Below, in pieces: positions 20,594-25,290 of a DNA stretch of 64,000 nucleotides (position 1 is the stretch's first letter; each line of letters begins with the position of its first letter). A program made the position numbers and the translations under genes. Under the pieces are notes generated by a model, which was not told the DNA's origin, did no database searches, and was given only the letters and a program-made list of their open reading frames with translations. The DNA is from an uncultured Acidobacteriaceae bacterium (lineage in GTDB: Bacteria; Acidobacteriota; Terriglobia; Terriglobales; Acidobacteriaceae). The DNA lies in NCBI GenBank assembly GCA_963734215.1, contig CAVTGH010000006.1, forward strand, positions 69,453 through 133,452, written 5' to 3'.

Positions 20594-20745
20594 CTGGGAA
20601 CAAGCATTCCGTCAGGACGGTACACGAAGGATTGTTGGGAGTCGAGGCGTACGGTGGTAAGGATCGCTCGCCTCGACTCTGCAACCCCTTCGATTAGACA
20701 AATGAAGACCGGCGCAAGGTGAGAACTTGCAGTTCACGCCGGGTG

Positions 20746-20778
20746 CCCCATTTCTCGCGTTCTTTGCGAGAAGAGGGG
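20746..20778. repeat. REP-like imperfect hairpin CCCCATTTCTCGC-N7-GCGAGAAGAGGGG
   Basis: Related to 6201-6231. Confidence 0.55.
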
Positions 20779-20869
20779 CTTTCGGCGGGTTGCCCGGGCT
20801 TTTTTAACCTTTCGCGCATTACCAATACAGTGGGAATGGTGCACGCAAAGATCGTACTTTCCAATAGCC

Positions 20870-22123
20870 TTGTCGTGCGATAGTCTTTGTGTGGCGCTGC
20901 GCGGGCTGCCCGCAGATCGAGGCGTCGTGGTGTGTACAAACTGGGACGGTTTCAACCACTTGCCGGAACTCGATATCGACCTGTTCGCAGGCGCGGGAGG
21001 ACTTGCGCTGGGGCTGAATCACGCGGGGTTCTCGCCCCTTCTCGTTTACGAGAGAGACAAGCACGCCTGCGAGACGCTGCGCCACAACGCGGCCCTCGGC
21101 GGTACGCTCGCAGGCACGGTACAAGAAGAGGATGTTAAGAGAGTCGAATGGCATAATTTTCGAGAGAATGTGCGGTTGCTTGCTGCGGGAGCGCCATGTC
21201 AGCCCTTCAGCCTGGGTGGAAAACATCGCGCGCAGCAAGATGAGCGCAATCTCTTCCCTGAAGTCCTCCGTTCGGTGCGCGCCCTTAAACCGAAGGTCGT
21301 CCTGATCGAGAACGTCCGCGGAATTCTCCGCACCGATTTCCAGCCGTTCTTTGAATACATACTGCGCCAGCTAGAGTACCCTTCGTTGGCTAAGCGTAAG
21401 GGAGAGACATGGCTTGATCATGCTCGCCGAATCCGCCAGCATCAATGCTCCGCTGGGTATATGCCTGAGTACCATGTTTGCTGGAGACTCTTGGAGGCAG
21501 CAGATTTCGGGGTACCCCAACTGCGGAAACGTGTCTTCATCATTGCAACGCGAATTGACCTGCCGGTTTATCAATTCCCGCTTCCGACCCACAGCAAGGA
21601 GGTCCTAGAACGTCGGCAGCAGGGTGGAATCTATTGGGAAAGTCACGGAATCAAGAAGCCTCGCACTGGCGGGCTTCAATTTCCAACGAACAAAAAAAAC
21701 GAGCTCGCACCGTGGATCACAGTCCGAGATGCGCTGGCGGGTTTGCCCGCGCCGCACGAGGATGCGTCGAGAGCATGGATGAATCACTGGTTGATACCCG
21801 GTGCGCGGGCGTATGCGGGACACGGGGGCAGCAGATTGGATTGGCCTTCCAAGACTATCAAGGCCGGAGTGCACGGCGTTCCGGGGGGAGAAAACACTGT
21901 AGTCCTCGACGACGGGAGCCTGAGGTACTACACGTTAAGAGAAGCCGGGCGCATTCAAACCTTTCCTGATTCGCACTTCTTCTCGGGAGCTCGGATTCAC
22001 ATCACACGACAACTCGGCAACGCTGTACCCTGCCTCCTTGCGGCGAGAGTGGCCCAGCCACTTTTTATGTTGCTTGGTTCGACTTCCCAGACGGCGGACA
22101 TGCGTCAAGCGGCAAACATCTAA
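20870..22123 (+). CDS. dcm: DNA (cytosine-5)-methyltransferase
   Basis: Motif I DLFAGAGGLALG, motif IV GAPCQPFS, motif VI ENVRGIL, motif X QLGNAVP. The N-terminal ~30 aa of the ORF may not be translated. Confidence 0.92.
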   Translation: MSCDSLCVALRGLPADRGVVVCTNWDGFNHLPELDIDLFAGAGGLALGLNHAGFSPLLVYERDKHACETLRHNAALGGTLAGTVQEEDVKRVEWHNFRENVRLLAAGAPCQPFSLGGKHRAQQDERNLFPEVLRSVRALKPKVVLIENVRGILRTDFQPFFEYILRQLEYPSLAKRKGETWLDHARRIRQHQCSAGYMPEYHVCWRLLEAADFGVPQLRKRVFIIATRIDLPVYQFPLPTHSKEVLERRQQGGIYWESHGIKKPRTGGLQFPTNKKNELAPWITVRDALAGLPAPHEDASRAWMNHWLIPGARAYAGHGGSRLDWPSKTIKAGVHGVPGGENTVVLDDGSLRYYTLREAGRIQTFPDSHFFSGARIHITRQLGNAVPCLLAARVAQPLFMLLGSTSQTADMRQAANI

Positions 22124-22581
22124 TGCCGGGTTCGAGGAGAACTCTCAAAGTGCGCGCTAGAGCTGATCCCCTCTCAACGAAACAGCGGTCCTCCCTGATG
22201 TCCAGAGTCAGGAGCCGCGGAAATCGTTCGACGGAAGTCGCTGTCGAAGAGGTCCTGAGGACGCATCGAATCCGGGGATGGGTAAAACACCCTCATGATG
22301 TACTCGGCAGGCCAGATTTCTATTTTCCGAAGGACATGCTTGCCATCTTCGTTGACGGCTGCTTTTGGCACCGCTGCCGACGATGCGCCCGAAGCGTGCC
22401 GAGCAATCGACACCTTTTTTGGCTCAACAAAATCGCCCAAAATGTGCGTCGCGACGAAAGAATCCGCCGTACCTTACGGCGAAGAGGATACTCGGTCATG
22501 CGAATATGGGAACACTCCATCCCTCATCAACGCACCTGGTTAGCGCGGATGAGAAGAATGCTTGACCGCAGGTCGAAGTAA
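22123..22581 (+). CDS. vsr: Very-short-patch repair endonuclease
   Basis: RSSLMSRVRSRGNRSTE...GRPDFYFPKDMLAIFVDGCFWHRC... is the Vsr signature. TAATG overlap with dcm. Confidence 0.9.
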   Translation: MPGSRRTLKVRARADPLSTKQRSSLMSRVRSRGNRSTEVAVEEVLRTHRIRGWVKHPHDVLGRPDFYFPKDMLAIFVDGCFWHRCRRCARSVPSNRHLFWLNKIAQNVRRDERIRRTLRRRGYSVMRIWEHSIPHQRTWLARMRRMLDRRSK

Positions 22582-22594
22582 TCGGAGCAGCGAG

Positions 22595-23722
22595 CTAGGA
22601 TGACTCAGCCAGAATCGAGGCGTCAAATTTGAAAGTGCCATGCTTCGACAAATATTTCAGCAAGATACCGAGACGAATGCGGATAGCATAGGCGTCATTC
22701 GGTGTTTGCGAGTGCTTGTCGAATTCCAGAAGAGCTAGCTCCACTGATGTCGAGGTTTCCCCTTGCTCTTCAGCGACCTCTCGATTCTTTTCTCTGTTCT
22801 TTTCGAATTGCGCCAGCATGTCACGGCTGACGCTGCTGACTTTTCCCAGCCTGATGAACCGGAATAGATGGAAGTACAGAGTGATCATCCCGACTTGGCG
22901 TAGCAGTTTATCCTGCGTGCCGAAGGCGCTCGTCATGAGAGCGAGAGTGTTGTCCGTCTCGTTCGCCAGCGCCGACACTGCAGATTGGGAAGCCTTTCTG
23001 GCTCCTTCTTGTCGCCATTTCTTGAACTGACGCACGAATGCGTCGAGGTCAGCTTTTTTTGTGTTCACGATCTCTTTCGAGAATTCGATGAACAAGAACT
23101 TAGCCGCAAGATCCCGGTGCCGATAGCGATTATCTGGGAAGGCAACGTGCCTGGTGAAGAATTTGTGGCCGGAAATATTTTGAATTGCATTTGGCAAGGG
23201 ACCTCCGAACGCGTTTCGTTTTTCGGGCGCGTTCAGCGGTACAGCCTCATTGAGTCGCGAAAACATATCCTCAATAAGGTCGATATCATTGGTCCGTATT
23301 GTGACAATGTCCAGCGGTGTTGAGTCGAATCGACTCTTGAGTTGTGGATATTTTTCAGCCAACTGCTTGTAGCCTAAGCCCCCGGCCTTAACCGTGCTGT
23401 CTCTAATGAACTCGAAATCGTCGGCGAGCGATATGTTGCCGTCAATAAAGTCCCAGATCGTTTGTATTCTCTGTTTTCCGTCAACTATTGCGTAGCGATA
23501 TTTCTTCGAACCAATTTTCTTGGGTGGTACAAACTCATGAAAGTAAAGCTTCGGGACGTCGAAACCGTTAATGATCGAATCAATGAGTAGCTGGCGCTTC
23601 TCCCTGGTCCAGATTCCGCTGATGCGCTGATAAGCCGGGTCAAGTTGAATATCGTCTCGTTCGGAATAGACGATCAATGCTGAACTCTGGGGATACCTCC
23701 CGAGACTGAATTCATCTTTCAT
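22595..23722 (-). CDS. DUF262 (ParB/GmrSD-N-like) domain protein without a DUF1524/HNH nuclease half
   Basis: DPAYQRISGIWTREKRQLLIDSIINGFDVPKLYF and AIVDGKQRIQTIWDFIDG are DUF262 hallmarks. The C-terminal ~200 aa is alpha-helical-looking with no His-Me motif seen. Confidence 0.8.
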   Translation of the reverse strand: MKDEFSLGRYPQSSALIVYSERDDIQLDPAYQRISGIWTREKRQLLIDSIINGFDVPKLYFHEFVPPKKIGSKKYRYAIVDGKQRIQTIWDFIDGNISLADDFEFIRDSTVKAGGLGYKQLAEKYPQLKSRFDSTPLDIVTIRTNDIDLIEDMFSRLNEAVPLNAPEKRNAFGGPLPNAIQNISGHKFFTRHVAFPDNRYRHRDLAAKFLFIEFSKEIVNTKKADLDAFVRQFKKWRQEGARKASQSAVSALANETDNTLALMTSAFGTQDKLLRQVGMITLYFHLFRFIRLGKVSSVSRDMLAQFEKNREKNREVAEEQGETSTSVELALLEFDKHSQTPNDAYAIRIRLGILLKYLSKHGTFKFDASILAESS

Positions 23723-24485
23723 AGGGTCTCCGAGCTAGCCGAGCGACATTATCGAGCTCTGGAAGAATACCGAGCTCGTCAATTCTTAATGCTTCGAGCT
23801 GACGCCTGATCCGCGGTTTTGCGCCCGAAGGAATGATGTATCGGCCTATATGCTTTCCGTCGCTGAGCGATTCGATGGGACTCTGATCGCGATGGGTGAC
23901 CGTGAACACGCTGAACTGCGCCTGCATTCGCTTCGAATGTCTAATCGCGATCCCCGCTGCAGGAGTGAGGCGGGTAGTCTGTTCGGACGCCATAACCGAC
24001 GGCAGATAATTTCGCAGGTTCCTGTTGTCGTCTTCAAAGATAGGGAGCGCGAGCTTGTTCGTGAGCTTGATACTAGCCTGCAGGTTTAGTTCAGCAGGAA
24101 GCAGGAGCCACAAGGCACCGTCTTTGGAATCGTTCTTCGTCAGGTTGCCGACATCATTGACTGCGAAATAAAGACCGATGAGAGGGCTTTCGCTCCAATC
24201 CAAGAGCCGCGTTGGAACACTGTGGTGTCGGGCAAGAAATAACCACTCCCATTCGGATTGCGGTCGATCAGTGACAAACTGAATCGCATTCTGTTTGAAC
24301 GCATTGATCAACGCACTCTCATGTTCAAGTTTGAAGGGTGGACGGCCAAGTGAAGGTACTAGCGAGTGCTTGCTATTGGTCGATCCGCGAAACCAGATAG
24401 GCGTCCGCCTCGCGAGGGCCCGATGCGACTCGACGGCGGTCAGCAGGTCGCCGACGCTACGGATTCTCCTCTCATCAAAAAACAT
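23712..24485 (-). CDS. FRG-domain protein
   Basis: IWFRGSTNSKHSLVPSLGR and LARHHSVPTRLLDWSESPLIGLYFAV match the FRG domain consensus. Its 3' end overlaps the DUF262 start by 11 nt. Confidence 0.8.
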   Translation of the reverse strand: MFFDERRIRSVGDLLTAVESHRALARRTPIWFRGSTNSKHSLVPSLGRPPFKLEHESALINAFKQNAIQFVTDRPQSEWEWLFLARHHSVPTRLLDWSESPLIGLYFAVNDVGNLTKNDSKDGALWLLLPAELNLQASIKLTNKLALPIFEDDNRNLRNYLPSVMASEQTTRLTPAAGIAIRHSKRMQAQFSVFTVTHRDQSPIESLSDGKHIGRYIIPSGAKPRIRRQLEALRIDELGILPELDNVARLARRPYER

Positions 24486-24592
24486 CGATCTGCTCTTTGC
24501 GCTTGCTGTGTCATCGTGGGCCGAACAGGGCCATGCAACTTTCTACGCTGTTCGAGCAATTCGCGCAAGTCAGGAGAGCACCTTCTATCCAG

Positions 24593-24880
24593 GGGGCTGG
24601 CCCAGCCGTACTCTAGCACGGCACGGGATGCCCCACCCGTGGCAGTTTCACGGGTGGGCTGCTGCGAACTCTCCCCTGCATGTTCATCGGTCACAGCGAA
24701 ATGTTCCTGTTACATTGCTCCAATGCCGACAAATCCACGCCGCTACTACGGCTCTTGGAGCTTCACATCCGCAAAATCTCCTGAGCCCGTCGGCGTCGTG
24801 GCCCACCCGTGAAACCGCCACGGGTGGGGCATCCAGTTCGGGCTTGCTCGGACGAAATGCGTCGGCTGGGCCAGCCCCCT
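24593..24880. repeat. Composite inverted pair of REP-like modules
   Basis: Two modules, AGGGGGCTGGCCCAGCCG and GATGCCCCACCCGTGGCRGTTTCACGGGTGGG. The left arm (24593-24660) is the reverse complement of the right arm (24800-24880), with variable 18- versus 29-nt linkers. Each arm also contains its own CCACCCGTG-N7/8-CACGGGTGG hairpin. Confidence 0.7.
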
Positions 24881-25135: not shown

Positions 25136-25175
25136 TCAAATGAACTCGTGCCCTTCCCGGTCAGCTGCAAAAGGA

Positions 25176-25268
25176 AAGGTAAAGTCAAAAGCAAAATCAA
25201 AAGCAAAATCAAGATCAAGATCAAGATCAAGATCAGGATCAAGGTCAAAATCAAAATCAAGGTCAAAG
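25176..25268. repeat. Hexanucleotide microsatellite (AARRTC)n including (AAGATC)x4 at 25211-25234
   Basis: aaggtaaagtcaaaagcaaaatcaaaagcaaaatcaagatcaagatcaagatcaagatcaggatcaaggtcaaaatcaaaatcaaggtc, intergenic, just downstream of rodZ. Confidence 0.85.
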
Positions 25269-25270
25269 GC

Positions 25271-25290
25271 AGCGGACAAAAGTGTCCGCT
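25271..25290 (-). terminator. Hairpin terminator downstream of rodZ
   Basis: AGCGGACA-aaag-TGTCCGCT, 8-bp stem. The minus-strand continuation is T-rich (gcctttgaccttgattttgatttt). Confidence 0.55.

What the first reader, a model, noticed from the sequence alone, without database searches (positions are those of the whole stretch)
20870..24485. Convergent dcm-vsr and FRG-DUF262 operons: a candidate non-canonical modification/restriction-type defence module
Seen in the sequence: (1) a complete C5-methyltransferase (motifs I, IV, VI and X present) is translationally coupled to vsr by a TAATG overlap; (2) no recognisable restriction endonuclease is nearby; (3) 13 nt beyond the vsr stop, on the opposite strand, a two-gene operon ends. 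That operon is an FRG-domain protein followed by a DUF262 protein, and the two genes overlap by 11 nt. Established knowledge: DUF262 is the NTPase/ParB-like half of the type IV enzymes GmrSD, BrxU and SspE, where it is fused to a DUF1524 His-Me nuclease. I see no such nuclease half in the 375-aa protein here. FRG has no assigned biochemical function that I know of. The 3.7-kb block is lower in GC than the flanks (about 48% on one hand-counted line against about 62% on one housekeeping line). It is bracketed by REP-like elements at 20746-20778 and 24593-24880. I am not aware of FRG plus nuclease-less DUF262 being an experimentally described system. Inference: either a methylation-guarded effector pair, or a type IV-like pair whose nuclease role is taken over by FRG.
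Basis: partly seen in the sequence, partly recalled or inferred. Interest (0 to 1): 0.7.

Follow-up and report, generated by a model that had tools for sequence, protein, structure and literature searches.

The report
FRG–DUF262 pair beside orphan methylase
A 3.6-kb mobile block in a soil acidobacterium joins a cytosine methylase and its repair nuclease to a widespread, uncharacterised two-gene pair (FRG + ParB-like DUF262) that in many other microbes sits inside or beside restriction-modification operons built on the same methylase family, so it is probably a new methylation-linked anti-phage module.

Summary
The DUF262 protein has no nuclease half, and no restriction enzyme is encoded nearby.

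FRG→DUF262 is a tightly co-evolving, translationally coupled unit. DUF262 follows FRG in 69 of 80 genome loci, from more than 12 phyla including archaea. FRG precedes DUF262 in every testable metagenome locus.

One clade of the pair, which includes the window, is persistently linked to one C5-methyltransferase family plus Vsr. This holds in 28 of 65 loci with full flanks, in 24 different gene orders. In some loci the pair lies between M and R.

The methylase's own restriction partner varies: an Eco29kI-type nuclease, a paraMORC GHKL ATPase with an Mrr-helicase, or none, as here. The four-gene block moves as a unit and all four genes are under purifying selection.

No named system fits. It is not Menshen, PD-T4-2, Dazbog or GmrSD. 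FRG is only the untested PADLOC candidate PDC-S15, and the literature predicts an ADP-ribosyltransferase-like NADase, not a nuclease.

Best reading: DUF262 senses DNA and FRG is the effector, probably gated by the neighbouring methylase's mark. One relative has a truncated methylase and an intact pair, which argues against strict dependence. New variant of a known kind; interest 0.62.

The parts
20870..22123 (+). C5 cytosine DNA methyltransferase (maximal ORF; probable real start GTG at 20927/20930). Orphan M of an Eco29kI/paraMORC-associated methylase family.
   Evidence: Pfam DNA_methylase 6.5e-54 and PADLOC MTase_II 9e-99. Motifs I, IV, VI, VIII and X are present. It is 42-48% identical to plasmid methylases that sit in vsr-M-R(Eco29kI) operons. 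dN/dS is 0.13 against L089.
22123..22581 (+). Vsr very-short-patch repair endonuclease, translationally coupled to the methylase (TAATG).
   Evidence: Pfam Vsr 3.2e-14. NCBIfam TIGR00632 scores 89.8 bits, just under its cut-off of 97.85. The overlap was read. dN/dS is 0.16.
22595..23722 (-). DUF262 protein (375 aa): ParB-like NTPase N-domain with a DGKQR motif (D81-R85) plus an all-helical C-domain. No nuclease domain. Proposed DNA sensor/regulator.
   Evidence: Pfam GmrSD_N 2.2e-15. PADLOC NsnA 1.3e-28 and PD-T4-2_A 2.6e-13. AlphaFold pLDDT 84; best PDB fold matches are BrxU (7e-3) and ParB/KorB. Invariant D81, G82, Q84, R85. dN/dS 0.05.
23712..24485 (-). FRG-domain protein (257 aa), first gene of the pair, overlapping the DUF262 start by 11 nt. 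Proposed effector.
   Evidence: Pfam FRG 5.9e-23 and PADLOC PDC-S15 2.3e-46. Invariant W31, R33, G34, H87, H88, Y106 and others. Co-evolves with DUF262, r=0.93. dN/dS 0.06.
20737..20805 (+). Left border: a strong hairpin followed by a terminator-like stem and T-run, upstream of dcm. Membership in the block is uncertain, because homology to related blocks starts only at 20922.
   Evidence: RNA fold z -4.15. Terminator-like site at 20781-20798. Block homology limits.
24591..24880 (.). Right border: a 290-nt long inverted repeat (18-nt perfect outer arms, 37-nt inner arms), MITE-like. It lies just upstream of the FRG start and is not part of the conserved block.
   Evidence: z -11.5. Single copy in the window. 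Absent from the collinear relatives L089 and L114, whose homology ends at 24497.

Best explanation
The window carries a horizontally acquired 3.6-kb, four-gene defence islet made of two halves.

(i) dcm-vsr is the modification and repair half of a restriction-modification cassette. Its restriction genes differ among relatives (an Eco29kI-type GIY-YIG nuclease, or a paraMORC GHKL ATPase with an Mrr-SF2 helicase) and are absent here.

(ii) FRG-DUF262 is a self-contained, translationally coupled two-protein module.

Proposed mechanism, all inferred:
- The DUF262 protein (ParB-like NTPase plus a helical DNA-binding domain, the NsnA/DndB/SspE-type architecture) senses DNA in an NTP-dependent way.
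- It then switches on its partner FRG, the effector. FRG is predicted in the literature to be an ADP-ribosyltransferase-fold NADase. It would deplete NAD+ or ADP-ribosylate a target and so stop phage or plasmid propagation.
- In this clade the 5-methylcytosine mark written by the linked methylase (probably at or near CCGCGG) most likely serves as the 'self' signal that keeps the module silent on host DNA. FRG-DUF262 would then be an alternative, non-nucleolytic 'R' partner of this methylase family.

Shown: gene content, domain content, the pair as a conserved unit, its specific and repeated linkage to one methylase family, mobility of the block, and purifying selection on all four genes.
Inferred: defence function, the sensor/effector roles, the direction of methylation dependence, and the chemistry of FRG.

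My sub-confidences: the pair is one functional unit 0.95; it has a defence or conflict role 0.75; it is functionally coupled to the methylase 0.55; unmethylated DNA is the trigger 0.4; FRG acts on NAD+ 0.4.
For: The pair is a unit:
- A DUF262 gene lies immediately downstream of FRG (overlaps of 1, 4, 8 or 11 nt) in 69 of 80 species-level genome loci from more than 12 phyla, including Nitrosopumilus, Thermoplasmatota and DPANN archaea.
- Anchoring on DUF262 instead, FRG is upstream in every metagenome locus that has room for it.
- Pairwise identities of the two proteins correlate at r=0.93.

Linkage to the methylase:
- Clustering all neighbours within 5 kb gives only three recurrent families: this C5-methylase, the RE_Eco29kI nuclease and Vsr.
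- In the tree of the pair, the clade holding the window has M in 19 of 27 tips, while the other clade has almost none.
- With at least 3 kb on both flanks, 28 of 65 loci have M, 25 have Vsr and 16 have R.
- There are 24 distinct gene orders. They include same-strand V>M>R>F>D (10 loci), the embedded order V>M>F>D>R (L148, L157, L163), and F>D>GHKL>Mrr-helicase>x>V>M in L009, where the DUF262 stop overlaps the next start.
- M and the pair co-diverge only weakly (r=0.23, Mantel p about 5e-4). This implies repeated re-association rather than one frozen island.
- The classical restriction partner is replaceable: Eco29kI-type in 28 loci, GHKL/Mrr-helicase in 5, none seen in 18 of 51 M-linked loci.
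- N4/N6 methylases lie directly downstream of the pair in L017 and L074.

The block moves as a unit:
- L089 and L114 (79% nt identity) and L002 and L003 (68.5%) are collinear with window 20922/20966 to 24497/24413, in different genomic contexts.
- GC3 is 0.58-0.62 in the block against 0.70-0.74 in the flanks.

Selection without any REase: dN/dS is 0.13 (dcm), 0.16 (vsr), 0.05 (DUF262) and 0.06 (FRG).

Sensor role: DUF262 is the modification- or DNA-sensing NTPase of GmrSD, BrxU, SspE and Dazbog, and the predicted sensor NsnA of Menshen (PMC10952713; PMC12065111). The catalytic DGxQR motif is invariant here.

Effector role: FRG proteins occur alone as the PADLOC candidate PDC-S15. They are called an ART-superfamily predicted NADase and antiviral effector by Iyer et al. 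2022 (PMC9503650) and are listed as ART-like in 10.1101/2024.07.30.605764.
Against: - L001, a 1.36-Mb contig, has a methylase truncated before motif X and no vsr, yet carries FRG and DUF262 identical to those of L002, which has intact M and V. The M of L108 is split into two ORFs. If the pair killed unmethylated cells, such genomes should be rare, unless the deletion is very recent or another M copy exists.
- About half of all pairs, mainly the second clade and also Ralstonia megaplasmids, have no methylase within 5-8 kb. The pair can therefore work, or at least persist, without a linked M.
- Every experimentally studied DUF262 system senses modified DNA, not unmodified DNA.
- The FRG fold and activity were not testable here. 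The model had pLDDT 63, Foldseek found nothing below E=5, and no PDB relative was found by sequence.
- No experimental data exist for any member; PDC-S15 is described as uncharacterised.
- CCGCGG is not depleted in the window, 45 observed against 47 expected. This is uninformative rather than supportive.
- Defence genes embedded in other systems are often mechanistically independent (10.1101/2024.01.29.577857).
Confidence: 0.45

Rival explanations
1. Autonomous defence pair, merely co-mobilised. FRG-DUF262 is an independent two-gene anti-phage (abortive-infection) system. Its trigger has nothing to do with the methylase, and it simply travels with R-M cassettes in mini defence islands or nests inside them.
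For: About half of the pairs have no methylase nearby, including Ralstonia megaplasmids. L001 keeps an intact pair next to a truncated M. Embedding of unrelated defence genes within other systems is a documented pattern. Other neighbours in the second clade are assorted defence or mobile genes: N6_N4 methylase, MvaI/BcnI, ResIII helicases, AAA_15/21, transposases.
Against: Linkage is to one methylase family only, not to R-M systems in general. It persists through 24 gene orders and through swaps of both the M lineage and the R type. In the window's sub-lineage the restriction genes are gone, yet M, V and the pair have co-diverged past synonymous saturation under purifying selection.
Confidence: 0.25
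2. Modification-dependent (type IV-like or Dazbog-like) module that complements R-M. DUF262 senses foreign modified DNA (hmC, glucosyl-hmC, or 5mC in other sequence contexts) and activates FRG. It is kept next to an R-M cassette because together they cover both unmodified and modified invaders. It has co-adapted to tolerate that methylase's own mark.
For: GmrSD, BrxU, SspE and Dazbog all use DUF262 to sense modified DNA. BREX with BrxU is a published precedent for complementary pairing (PMC8565348, listed). The best PDB fold match of the N-domain is BrxU. This reading explains pairs that have no methylase nearby.
Against: The pair can be co-operonic with, and even embedded between, M and R of a 5mC system. 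There is no DUF1524 nuclease. PADLOC Dazbog models do not match either protein. Compatibility alone does not explain why a single methylase family recurs.
Confidence: 0.2
3. Not an immune effector. The pair is a DndB-like regulatory or DNA-maintenance module that controls expression of the adjacent modification and restriction genes, or that assists Vsr-type repair of 5mC deamination.
For: DndB has the same ParB/DUF262 plus helical-domain architecture and is part of a modification operon (PMC12065111). Vsr is the neighbour most tightly apposed to DUF262 in the window's sub-lineage.
Against: The pair is frequent without any M, R or V nearby. FRG proteins are enriched enough in defence contexts to be a PADLOC candidate. 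The patchy distribution across phyla and archaea and the low GC3 fit a mobile conflict system, not a housekeeping regulator.
Confidence: 0.07

Closest known systems
GmrSD / BrxU / SspE (type IV and PT-sensing DUF262-DUF1524 enzymes)
   Same: N-terminal ParB-like DUF262 NTPase with a conserved DGxQR motif, followed by a helical middle domain. Best PDB fold match is BrxU.
   Different: There is no DUF1524 His-Me nuclease. The effector is a separate FRG protein encoded upstream. The module is linked to a methylase gene, whereas those enzymes attack modified DNA.
Menshen (NsnABC)
   Same: The DUF262 protein gives its best PADLOC hit to NsnA (1.3e-28, residues 15-269). It shares the ParB-DUF262 plus helical 'ParBDB'-like architecture. 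About 28% of Menshen operons also sit next to R-M systems or methylases.
   Different: There is no NsnB ABC ATPase/DUF3696 and no NsnC inPIN-nuclease. The partner is FRG and it is encoded upstream, not downstream.
PD-T4-2 and Dazbog (two-gene DUF262 systems without DUF1524)
   Same: A two-gene logic: a DUF262 protein plus a separate second protein. There is a weak PD-T4-2_A hit (2.6e-13).
   Different: The PD-T4-2 partner is a HEPN protein. In Dazbog the DUF262 gene comes first and the system is triggered by a phage cytosine methylase. No DzbA or DzbB model matches here, and here a cytosine methylase is the resident neighbour.
PADLOC candidate PDC-S15 (stand-alone FRG proteins)
   Same: The FRG protein matches 14 PDC-S15 models, best 2.3e-46.
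   Different: PDC-S15 is a single-gene, untested candidate. Here FRG is obligatorily paired with DUF262.
Eco29kI-type (CCGCGG) and MORC/paraMORC-type restriction-modification operons with Vsr
   Same: The window's methylase and Vsr belong to the family found in vsr-M-R(Eco29kI) operons. They also belong to the family found in M-GHKL-Mrr/helicase-x-Vsr operons (Iyer et al. 2008, PMC2292703).
   Different: The window has neither kind of restriction gene. FRG-DUF262 occupies the position convergent to M-V.
PrrC embedded in the EcoprrI type I R-M locus
   Same: An abortive-infection effector physically embedded in, and functionally tied to, an R-M operon.
   Different: PrrC is an anticodon nuclease released by a phage anti-restriction peptide. 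There is no homology to it, and the coupling here is hypothetical.

Membership tests
GmrSD-family type IV restriction enzyme | N-terminal DUF262 (GmrSD_N) NTPase domain with a DGQQR-type motif | tested here: met
   Pfam PF03235 2.2e-15. DGKQR, with D81, G82, Q84 and R85 invariant in 59 homologues.
GmrSD-family type IV restriction enzyme | C-terminal DUF1524 His-Me (HNH-like) nuclease domain, fused or encoded by an adjacent gene | tested here: not met
   No Pfam hit beyond residue 172. The AlphaFold model shows residues 175-375 as all-helical. The adjacent gene encodes FRG, not DUF1524.
GmrSD-family type IV restriction enzyme | Cleavage dependent on modified cytosines | not testable with these tools
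   Needs biochemistry. Co-operonic placement with a 5mC methylase in relatives makes generic 5mC dependence unlikely.
Menshen (NsnABC) | NsnA-like protein (ParB-DUF262 plus ParBDB) | tested here: met
   PADLOC NsnA 1.3e-28, residues 15-269 matching model positions 55-294 of 385. Helical C-domain of nine helices.
Menshen (NsnABC) | An NsnB ABC ATPase (AAA_15/21 + DUF3696) and an NsnC effector immediately downstream | tested here: not met
   The DUF262 gene ends 13 nt from the convergent vsr. No such family recurs among neighbours in 67 loci.
PD-T4-2 | DUF262 protein (A) paired with a HEPN protein (B) | tested here: not met
   The A model matches at 2.6e-13, but the partner is FRG (Pfam PF08867) and has no HEPN hit.
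Dazbog (DzbAB) | Matches to DzbA/DzbB models, with the DUF262 gene first | tested here: not met
   There are no Dzb hits at E<=0.01 in PADLOC for either protein. The gene order is reversed, with FRG first.
PADLOC PDC-S15 (FRG candidate) | FRG-domain protein matching PDC-S15 profiles | tested here: met
   PDLC04938 2.3e-46, covering residues 5-252. This is a candidate, not a validated system.
ADP-ribosyltransferase (ART) superfamily, Frg clade | ART split beta-sheet fold with an NAD+-binding catalytic triad | tested here: inconclusive
   The model has pLDDT 63 and the conserved core regions 61-95 and 146-199 are below 50. Foldseek against the PDB has nothing below E=5; the PARP3 hits at E about 7 are not significant. 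A profile search against PDB sequences gives no hit. The assignment rests on the literature only.
Type II R-M system, Eco29kI type | C5 methyltransferase of the family that partners Eco29kI-like nucleases | tested here: met
   42-48% identity to methylases adjacent to annotated Eco29kI-family or GIY-YIG nucleases. The region between motifs VIII and X is conserved in the alignment.
Type II R-M system, Eco29kI type | Cognate RE_Eco29kI (GIY-YIG) restriction endonuclease gene | tested here: not met
   tblastn of the L006 enzyme against the whole window gives a best E of 2.1. The enzyme is present in 28 of 51 M-linked relatives.
Type II R-M system, Eco29kI type | Methylation of CCGCGG | not testable with these tools
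   Needs a methylome (bisulfite, ONT or SMRT). The specificity is inferred from homology only.
MORC/paraMORC-type R-M operon | GHKL ATPase plus SF2 helicase/endonuclease, together with a cytosine methylase and Vsr | tested here: not met
   These genes are present in L009, L097, L101/L102, L105 and L109/L110. They are absent from the window, where M and V are directly coupled.

The most novel reading that the evidence does not exclude
FRG-DUF262 is a methylation-gated, non-nucleolytic 'restriction' module. A ParB-like NTPase clamp loads on invading DNA that lacks the 5mC mark of the linked methylase. It then activates or delivers an ADP-ribosyltransferase-fold enzyme, which ADP-ribosylates the foreign DNA or burns NAD+. 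This would be a third interchangeable effector for one methylase family, alongside a GIY-YIG nuclease and a paraMORC/helicase-nuclease machine.
Probability: 0.2. Interest if true: 0.85.

Novelty: new variant of a known kind. Interest (0 to 1): 0.62.

Why it matters
DUF262/ParB-like NTPases are emerging as general DNA-state sensors in bacterial immunity, but every characterised case either carries a nuclease or senses modified DNA.

This pair differs in two ways. It partners DUF262 with FRG, a large domain family (over 21,000 50%-identity clusters) that has no experimental function. It is also repeatedly recruited to one cytosine-methylase family whose classical restriction genes are interchangeable or missing.

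If the coupling is real, three things follow. FRG would gain a first assigned function. Methylation-based self/non-self discrimination would be shown driving a non-nuclease effector. And it would explain why some 'orphan' methylase-Vsr pairs are retained.

The pair also occurs in cultivable Ralstonia solanacearum, so the hypotheses can be tested directly.

Tried and rejected
- FRG structure. The AlphaFold2 model from 59 homologues was poor (pLDDT 63). Foldseek against the PDB returned only E>5. Profile searches of PDB sequences found nothing for FRG and nothing meaningful for DUF262. So neither a nuclease fold nor an ART fold could be tested.
- Weak Pfam hits of FRG homologues. Only DUF592 appeared (10 of 59, best 7.5e-4), which is not interpretable.
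- PHROGs. Only families of unknown function matched.
- Named systems. Menshen, PD-T4-2, Dazbog and GmrSD were each rejected on a defining feature.
- Remnant restriction gene in the window. None found.
- tRNA, Rfam families or an integrase at the borders. None found.
- 'REP' status of the bordering repeats. Not supported, because each is single-copy in the window.
- Viral carriage. No relatives in IMG/VR.
- FRG-DUF262 fusion proteins (Rosetta stone). None among the 150 best representatives.
- CCGCGG avoidance. None.
- Literature. No paper in the library mentions both FRG and DUF262. The primary source for FRG as ART-like (Burroughs & Aravind 2020, J Bacteriol) is not held.
- I first thought the methylase was purely Eco29kI-type. 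I revised this after finding paraMORC-type operons in the closest sub-lineage.

Full report
**1. What is in the window**

ORF listing and direct reading confirm four genes:
- A C5-methyltransferase at 20870-22123 (+). This is the maximal ORF from a TTG. A GTG at 20927/20930 preceded by GAGG is a likelier start.
- vsr at 22123-22581 (+), overlapping the methylase stop in TAATG.
- A DUF262 gene at 22595-23722 (-), whose stop lies 13 nt from the vsr stop.
- An FRG gene at 23712-24485 (-), overlapping the DUF262 start by 11 nt.

Pfam, NCBIfam and PADLOC agree on all four. The DUF262 protein matches GmrSD_N only over residues 27-172. Its AlphaFold model (pLDDT 84) is a ParB-like N-domain followed by nine helices, with BrxU and ParB/KorB as the best, weak PDB matches. 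There is no His-Me nuclease.

The flanks are housekeeping genes: AdoHcy hydrolase, an ammonium transporter, a TetR regulator, RodZ, a GGDEF protein and Lnt. No tRNA, Rfam family or integrase is present. The DUF262 protein is 100% identical to a protein from a Candidatus Sulfotelmatobacter MAG, so the host is an acidobacterium.

GC content is clearly low only for FRG-DUF262. GC3, however, separates all four genes (0.58-0.62) from the neighbouring genes (0.70-0.74).

The bordering 'REP-like' elements are real inverted repeats: a hairpin at 20737-20787 and a 290-nt long inverted repeat at 24591-24880. Each is single-copy in the window, and neither belongs to the conserved block.

**2. The FRG-DUF262 pair is a conserved unit**

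The FRG protein has 939 homologues and the DUF262 protein 3798 homologues at E<=1e-5, often on the same contigs.

A scan of one genome per species, anchored on FRG, returned 80 loci from Acidobacteriota, Bacteroidota, Planctomycetota, Actinomycetota, Chloroflexota, Verrucomicrobiota, Nitrospirota, several proteobacterial classes, CPR bacteria and three archaeal lineages. In 69 of them a DUF262 gene follows FRG directly, usually with a 1-, 4-, 8- or 11-nt overlap. The loci without it carry the most distant FRG proteins.

An independent metagenome scan anchored on DUF262 found FRG upstream in every locus that had room for it. Pairwise identities of the two proteins correlate at r=0.93. A few copies are decayed (L007, L064, L068). 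The FRG superfamily is large: 21,203 50%-identity clusters at E<=1e-3, of which 378 at E<=1e-30 resemble this subfamily.

**3. What the methylase really is**

The closest annotated relatives of the methylase (42-48% identity) lie in vsr-M-R operons whose R is annotated as an 'Eco29kI family restriction endonuclease' or a GIY-YIG nuclease. Eco29kI recognises CCGCGG (PMC1952068 and PMC2241918, listed).

In the sub-lineage nearest the window (L009, L097, L101/L102, L105, L109/L110), the same methylase and Vsr sit in an operon with three further genes: a GHKL ATPase, an Mrr_cat-ResIII-Helicase_C protein and a 175-aa ORF. This is the MORC/paraMORC type of R-M operon described by Iyer, Abhiman and Aravind in 2008 (PMC2292703).

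The window has neither kind of restriction gene. So dcm-vsr here is the modification and repair half of an R-M cassette that lacks its restriction half.

**4. Linkage between the pair and the methylase**

I clustered every ORF within 5 kb of the pair in 67 non-redundant genome loci. Only three recurrent neighbour families emerged: this methylase, RE_Eco29kI and Vsr.

On a tree of the concatenated pair, the clade that contains the window has the methylase in 19 of 27 tips. The other large clade (mostly Bacteroidota and Proteobacteria) has essentially none.

Pooling both scans gives 135 non-redundant loci. Of the 65 with at least 3 kb on both flanks, 28 have M, 25 have Vsr and 16 have R. The M-linked loci show 24 different gene orders. 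These include:
- the window's order, convergent F>D V<M<;
- same-strand V>M>R>F>D (10 loci);
- V>M>F>D>R, with the pair embedded between M and R (L148, L157, L163);
- L009's seven-gene same-strand array, in which the DUF262 stop overlaps the GHKL start.

Among the 51 M-linked loci the classical restriction partner is Eco29kI-type in 28 and GHKL/Mrr-helicase in 5. None was seen in 18, of which 13 are in the window's clade of at least 60% identity.

The methylase and the pair co-diverge only weakly overall (r=0.23, Mantel p about 5e-4). Two distinct M lineages occur within the window's close clade. The association has therefore been re-made repeatedly, not inherited as a single frozen island.

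Two loci outside this pattern have an N4/N6 methylase directly downstream of the pair instead (L017, L074).

**5. The block in the window**

L089 and L114 (79% nt identity) and L002 and L003 (68.5%) are collinear with the window exactly over the four genes and nothing more, and they sit in unrelated genomic contexts. Against L089, dN/dS is 0.13 (dcm), 0.16 (vsr), 0.05 (DUF262) and 0.06 (FRG), at dS of about 1. So all four genes have been maintained together, without any restriction enzyme, for a long time.

**6. Mechanism**

Shown: gene and domain content, the pair as a conserved unit, its specific and repeated linkage to one methylase family, mobility of the block, and purifying selection on all four genes.

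Inferred:
- DUF262 acts as an NTP-dependent DNA sensor. This is by analogy with GmrSD, BrxU, SspE, Dazbog and the predicted role of NsnA, and the catalytic DGxQR motif is invariant here.
- FRG is the effector. It occurs alone as the PADLOC candidate PDC-S15. The Aravind group classifies it as an ART-superfamily predicted NADase and antiviral effector (PMC9503650).
- The methylase mark is the most likely self signal, for three reasons. The one constant partner of this clade is the methylase, not any particular nuclease. The restriction genes are replaceable or dispensable while M is retained. And the pair can sit inside the M-R operon.

This makes FRG-DUF262 a candidate alternative, non-nucleolytic 'R' partner. 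[quoted passage not shown]

**7. Evidence against, and rivals**

- L001 carries a methylase truncated before motif X and has lost vsr, yet its pair is intact and identical to that of L002. The M of L108 is split.
- Half of all pairs, including those on Ralstonia solanacearum megaplasmids, have no methylase nearby.
- All studied DUF262 systems sense modified DNA.

Three rivals therefore remain: an autonomous pair that is merely co-mobilised with R-M (0.25), a modification-dependent module that complements R-M (0.20), and a DndB-like regulatory or repair role (0.07). The FRG fold could not be tested, because the model was poor and there were no PDB relatives.

**8. Comparison with known systems, and novelty**

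The pair shares the DUF262 sensor theme with GmrSD/BrxU/SspE, Menshen, PD-T4-2 and Dazbog, but fails a defining feature of each:
- GmrSD family: no DUF1524.
- Menshen: no NsnB or NsnC.
- PD-T4-2: no HEPN partner.
- Dazbog: no Dzb matches, and the gene order is reversed.

FRG is only an untested single-gene candidate. No paper in the searchable library mentions FRG together with DUF262. I therefore rate the finding as a new variant of a known kind: a DUF262-sensor module with a new effector and a specific methylase linkage. I do not rate it as categorically new.

**9. Verdict**

Co-conservation and the methylase linkage hold up. The 'nuclease role taken over by FRG' idea has no support. And the methylase is a remnant of a classical R-M cassette, not a free-standing guard.

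Interest is 0.62. This is a widespread, experimentally untouched two-gene module with a sharp, testable hypothesis and a cultivable host, but every functional step is still inference.

Noticed in passing
window 24591-24880: A 290-nt long inverted repeat: 18-nt perfect outer arms and 37-nt inner arms at 95%, each inner arm itself a hairpin. DNA fold z-score is -11.5. It is MITE-like, occurs once in the window, and is absent from the collinear relatives L089 and L114.
   Followed up: partly
window 20737-20805: A strong 51-nt hairpin (z -4.2) followed by a terminator-like stem and T-run, in an 870-nt non-coding stretch upstream of dcm. No Rfam or tRNA match.
   Followed up: partly
window 25161-25278: A 6/12-nt periodic tandem repeat (TCAAGA/TCAAAA units, 7 copies in register at a 12-nt period), just downstream of the rodZ-like gene.
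   Followed up: no
L102:7497-13681 (also L009, L097, L101, L105, L109/L110): A paraMORC-type R-M operon: C5 methylase, a GHKL ATPase (about 800-880 aa), an Mrr_cat+ResIII/Helicase_C protein (560 aa), a 175-aa ORF and Vsr. It lies next to FRG-DUF262. In L009 all seven genes are on one strand and the DUF262 stop overlaps the GHKL start.
   Followed up: partly
L001:10038-11138 compared with L002:10234-11523: Two contigs carry identical FRG and DUF262 proteins. In L001 the methylase is truncated before motif X (it ends RHPMRSI*) and vsr is deleted. In L002 both are intact. This is a natural test case against strict methylase dependence.
   Followed up: partly
L075:7878-9161 and L080:7779-9137: Distant FRG proteins in Acidobacteria are fused to a C-terminal SET (lysine methyltransferase-like) domain and have no DUF262 partner.
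   Followed up: no
L169 (Ralstonia solanacearum megaplasmid CP049792.1, record 317416-319336): An annotated FRG and DUF262 gene pair (36% identity to the window's DUF262) is present in at least 20 Ralstonia megaplasmid records. It is preceded by a NERD-UvrD helicase gene and followed by an IS5 transposase, with no methylase adjacent. This is a tractable host for experiments.
   Followed up: partly
L017:3714-4595 and L074:9914-11032: An N6_N4-type (amino) DNA methyltransferase gene lies directly downstream of DUF262 (gaps of 58 and 22 nt) in two loci that lack the C5 methylase.
   Followed up: partly
L044:4662-7733, L053:3647-6559, L069:2-1648: A ribonucleotide reductase large-subunit gene (Ribonuc_red_lgC in L044 and L053; L069 joined them by sequence clustering only) lies within a few kb upstream of the pair in three unrelated loci. 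This may mark an insertion hotspot or may be coincidence.
   Followed up: no
L068:8001-9845, L007:8659-9294, L064:8001-8766: Decayed copies of the pair. In L068 FRG is split by an insertion of about 1.1 kb. In L007 DUF262 has an internal deletion. L064 retains only fragments.
   Followed up: no
L013:9886-10635, L035:6988-7713, L046:7193-7975: A second, divergent RE_Eco29kI-like gene family (Pfam E 1e-5 to 1e-8) lies next to the pair. L013 and L035 thus carry two Eco29kI-like genes each.
   Followed up: no
alignment A1 (FRG homologues): 10 of 59 FRG homologues give weak hits (best E 7.5e-4) to Pfam DUF592. The hits are probably noise.
   Followed up: no
window, whole 64 kb: CCGCGG occurs 45 times against 47 expected from a maximal-order Markov model, so the presumed target site is not avoided. 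Three of the sites lie inside the four-gene block (21316, 22215, 23811).
   Followed up: yes
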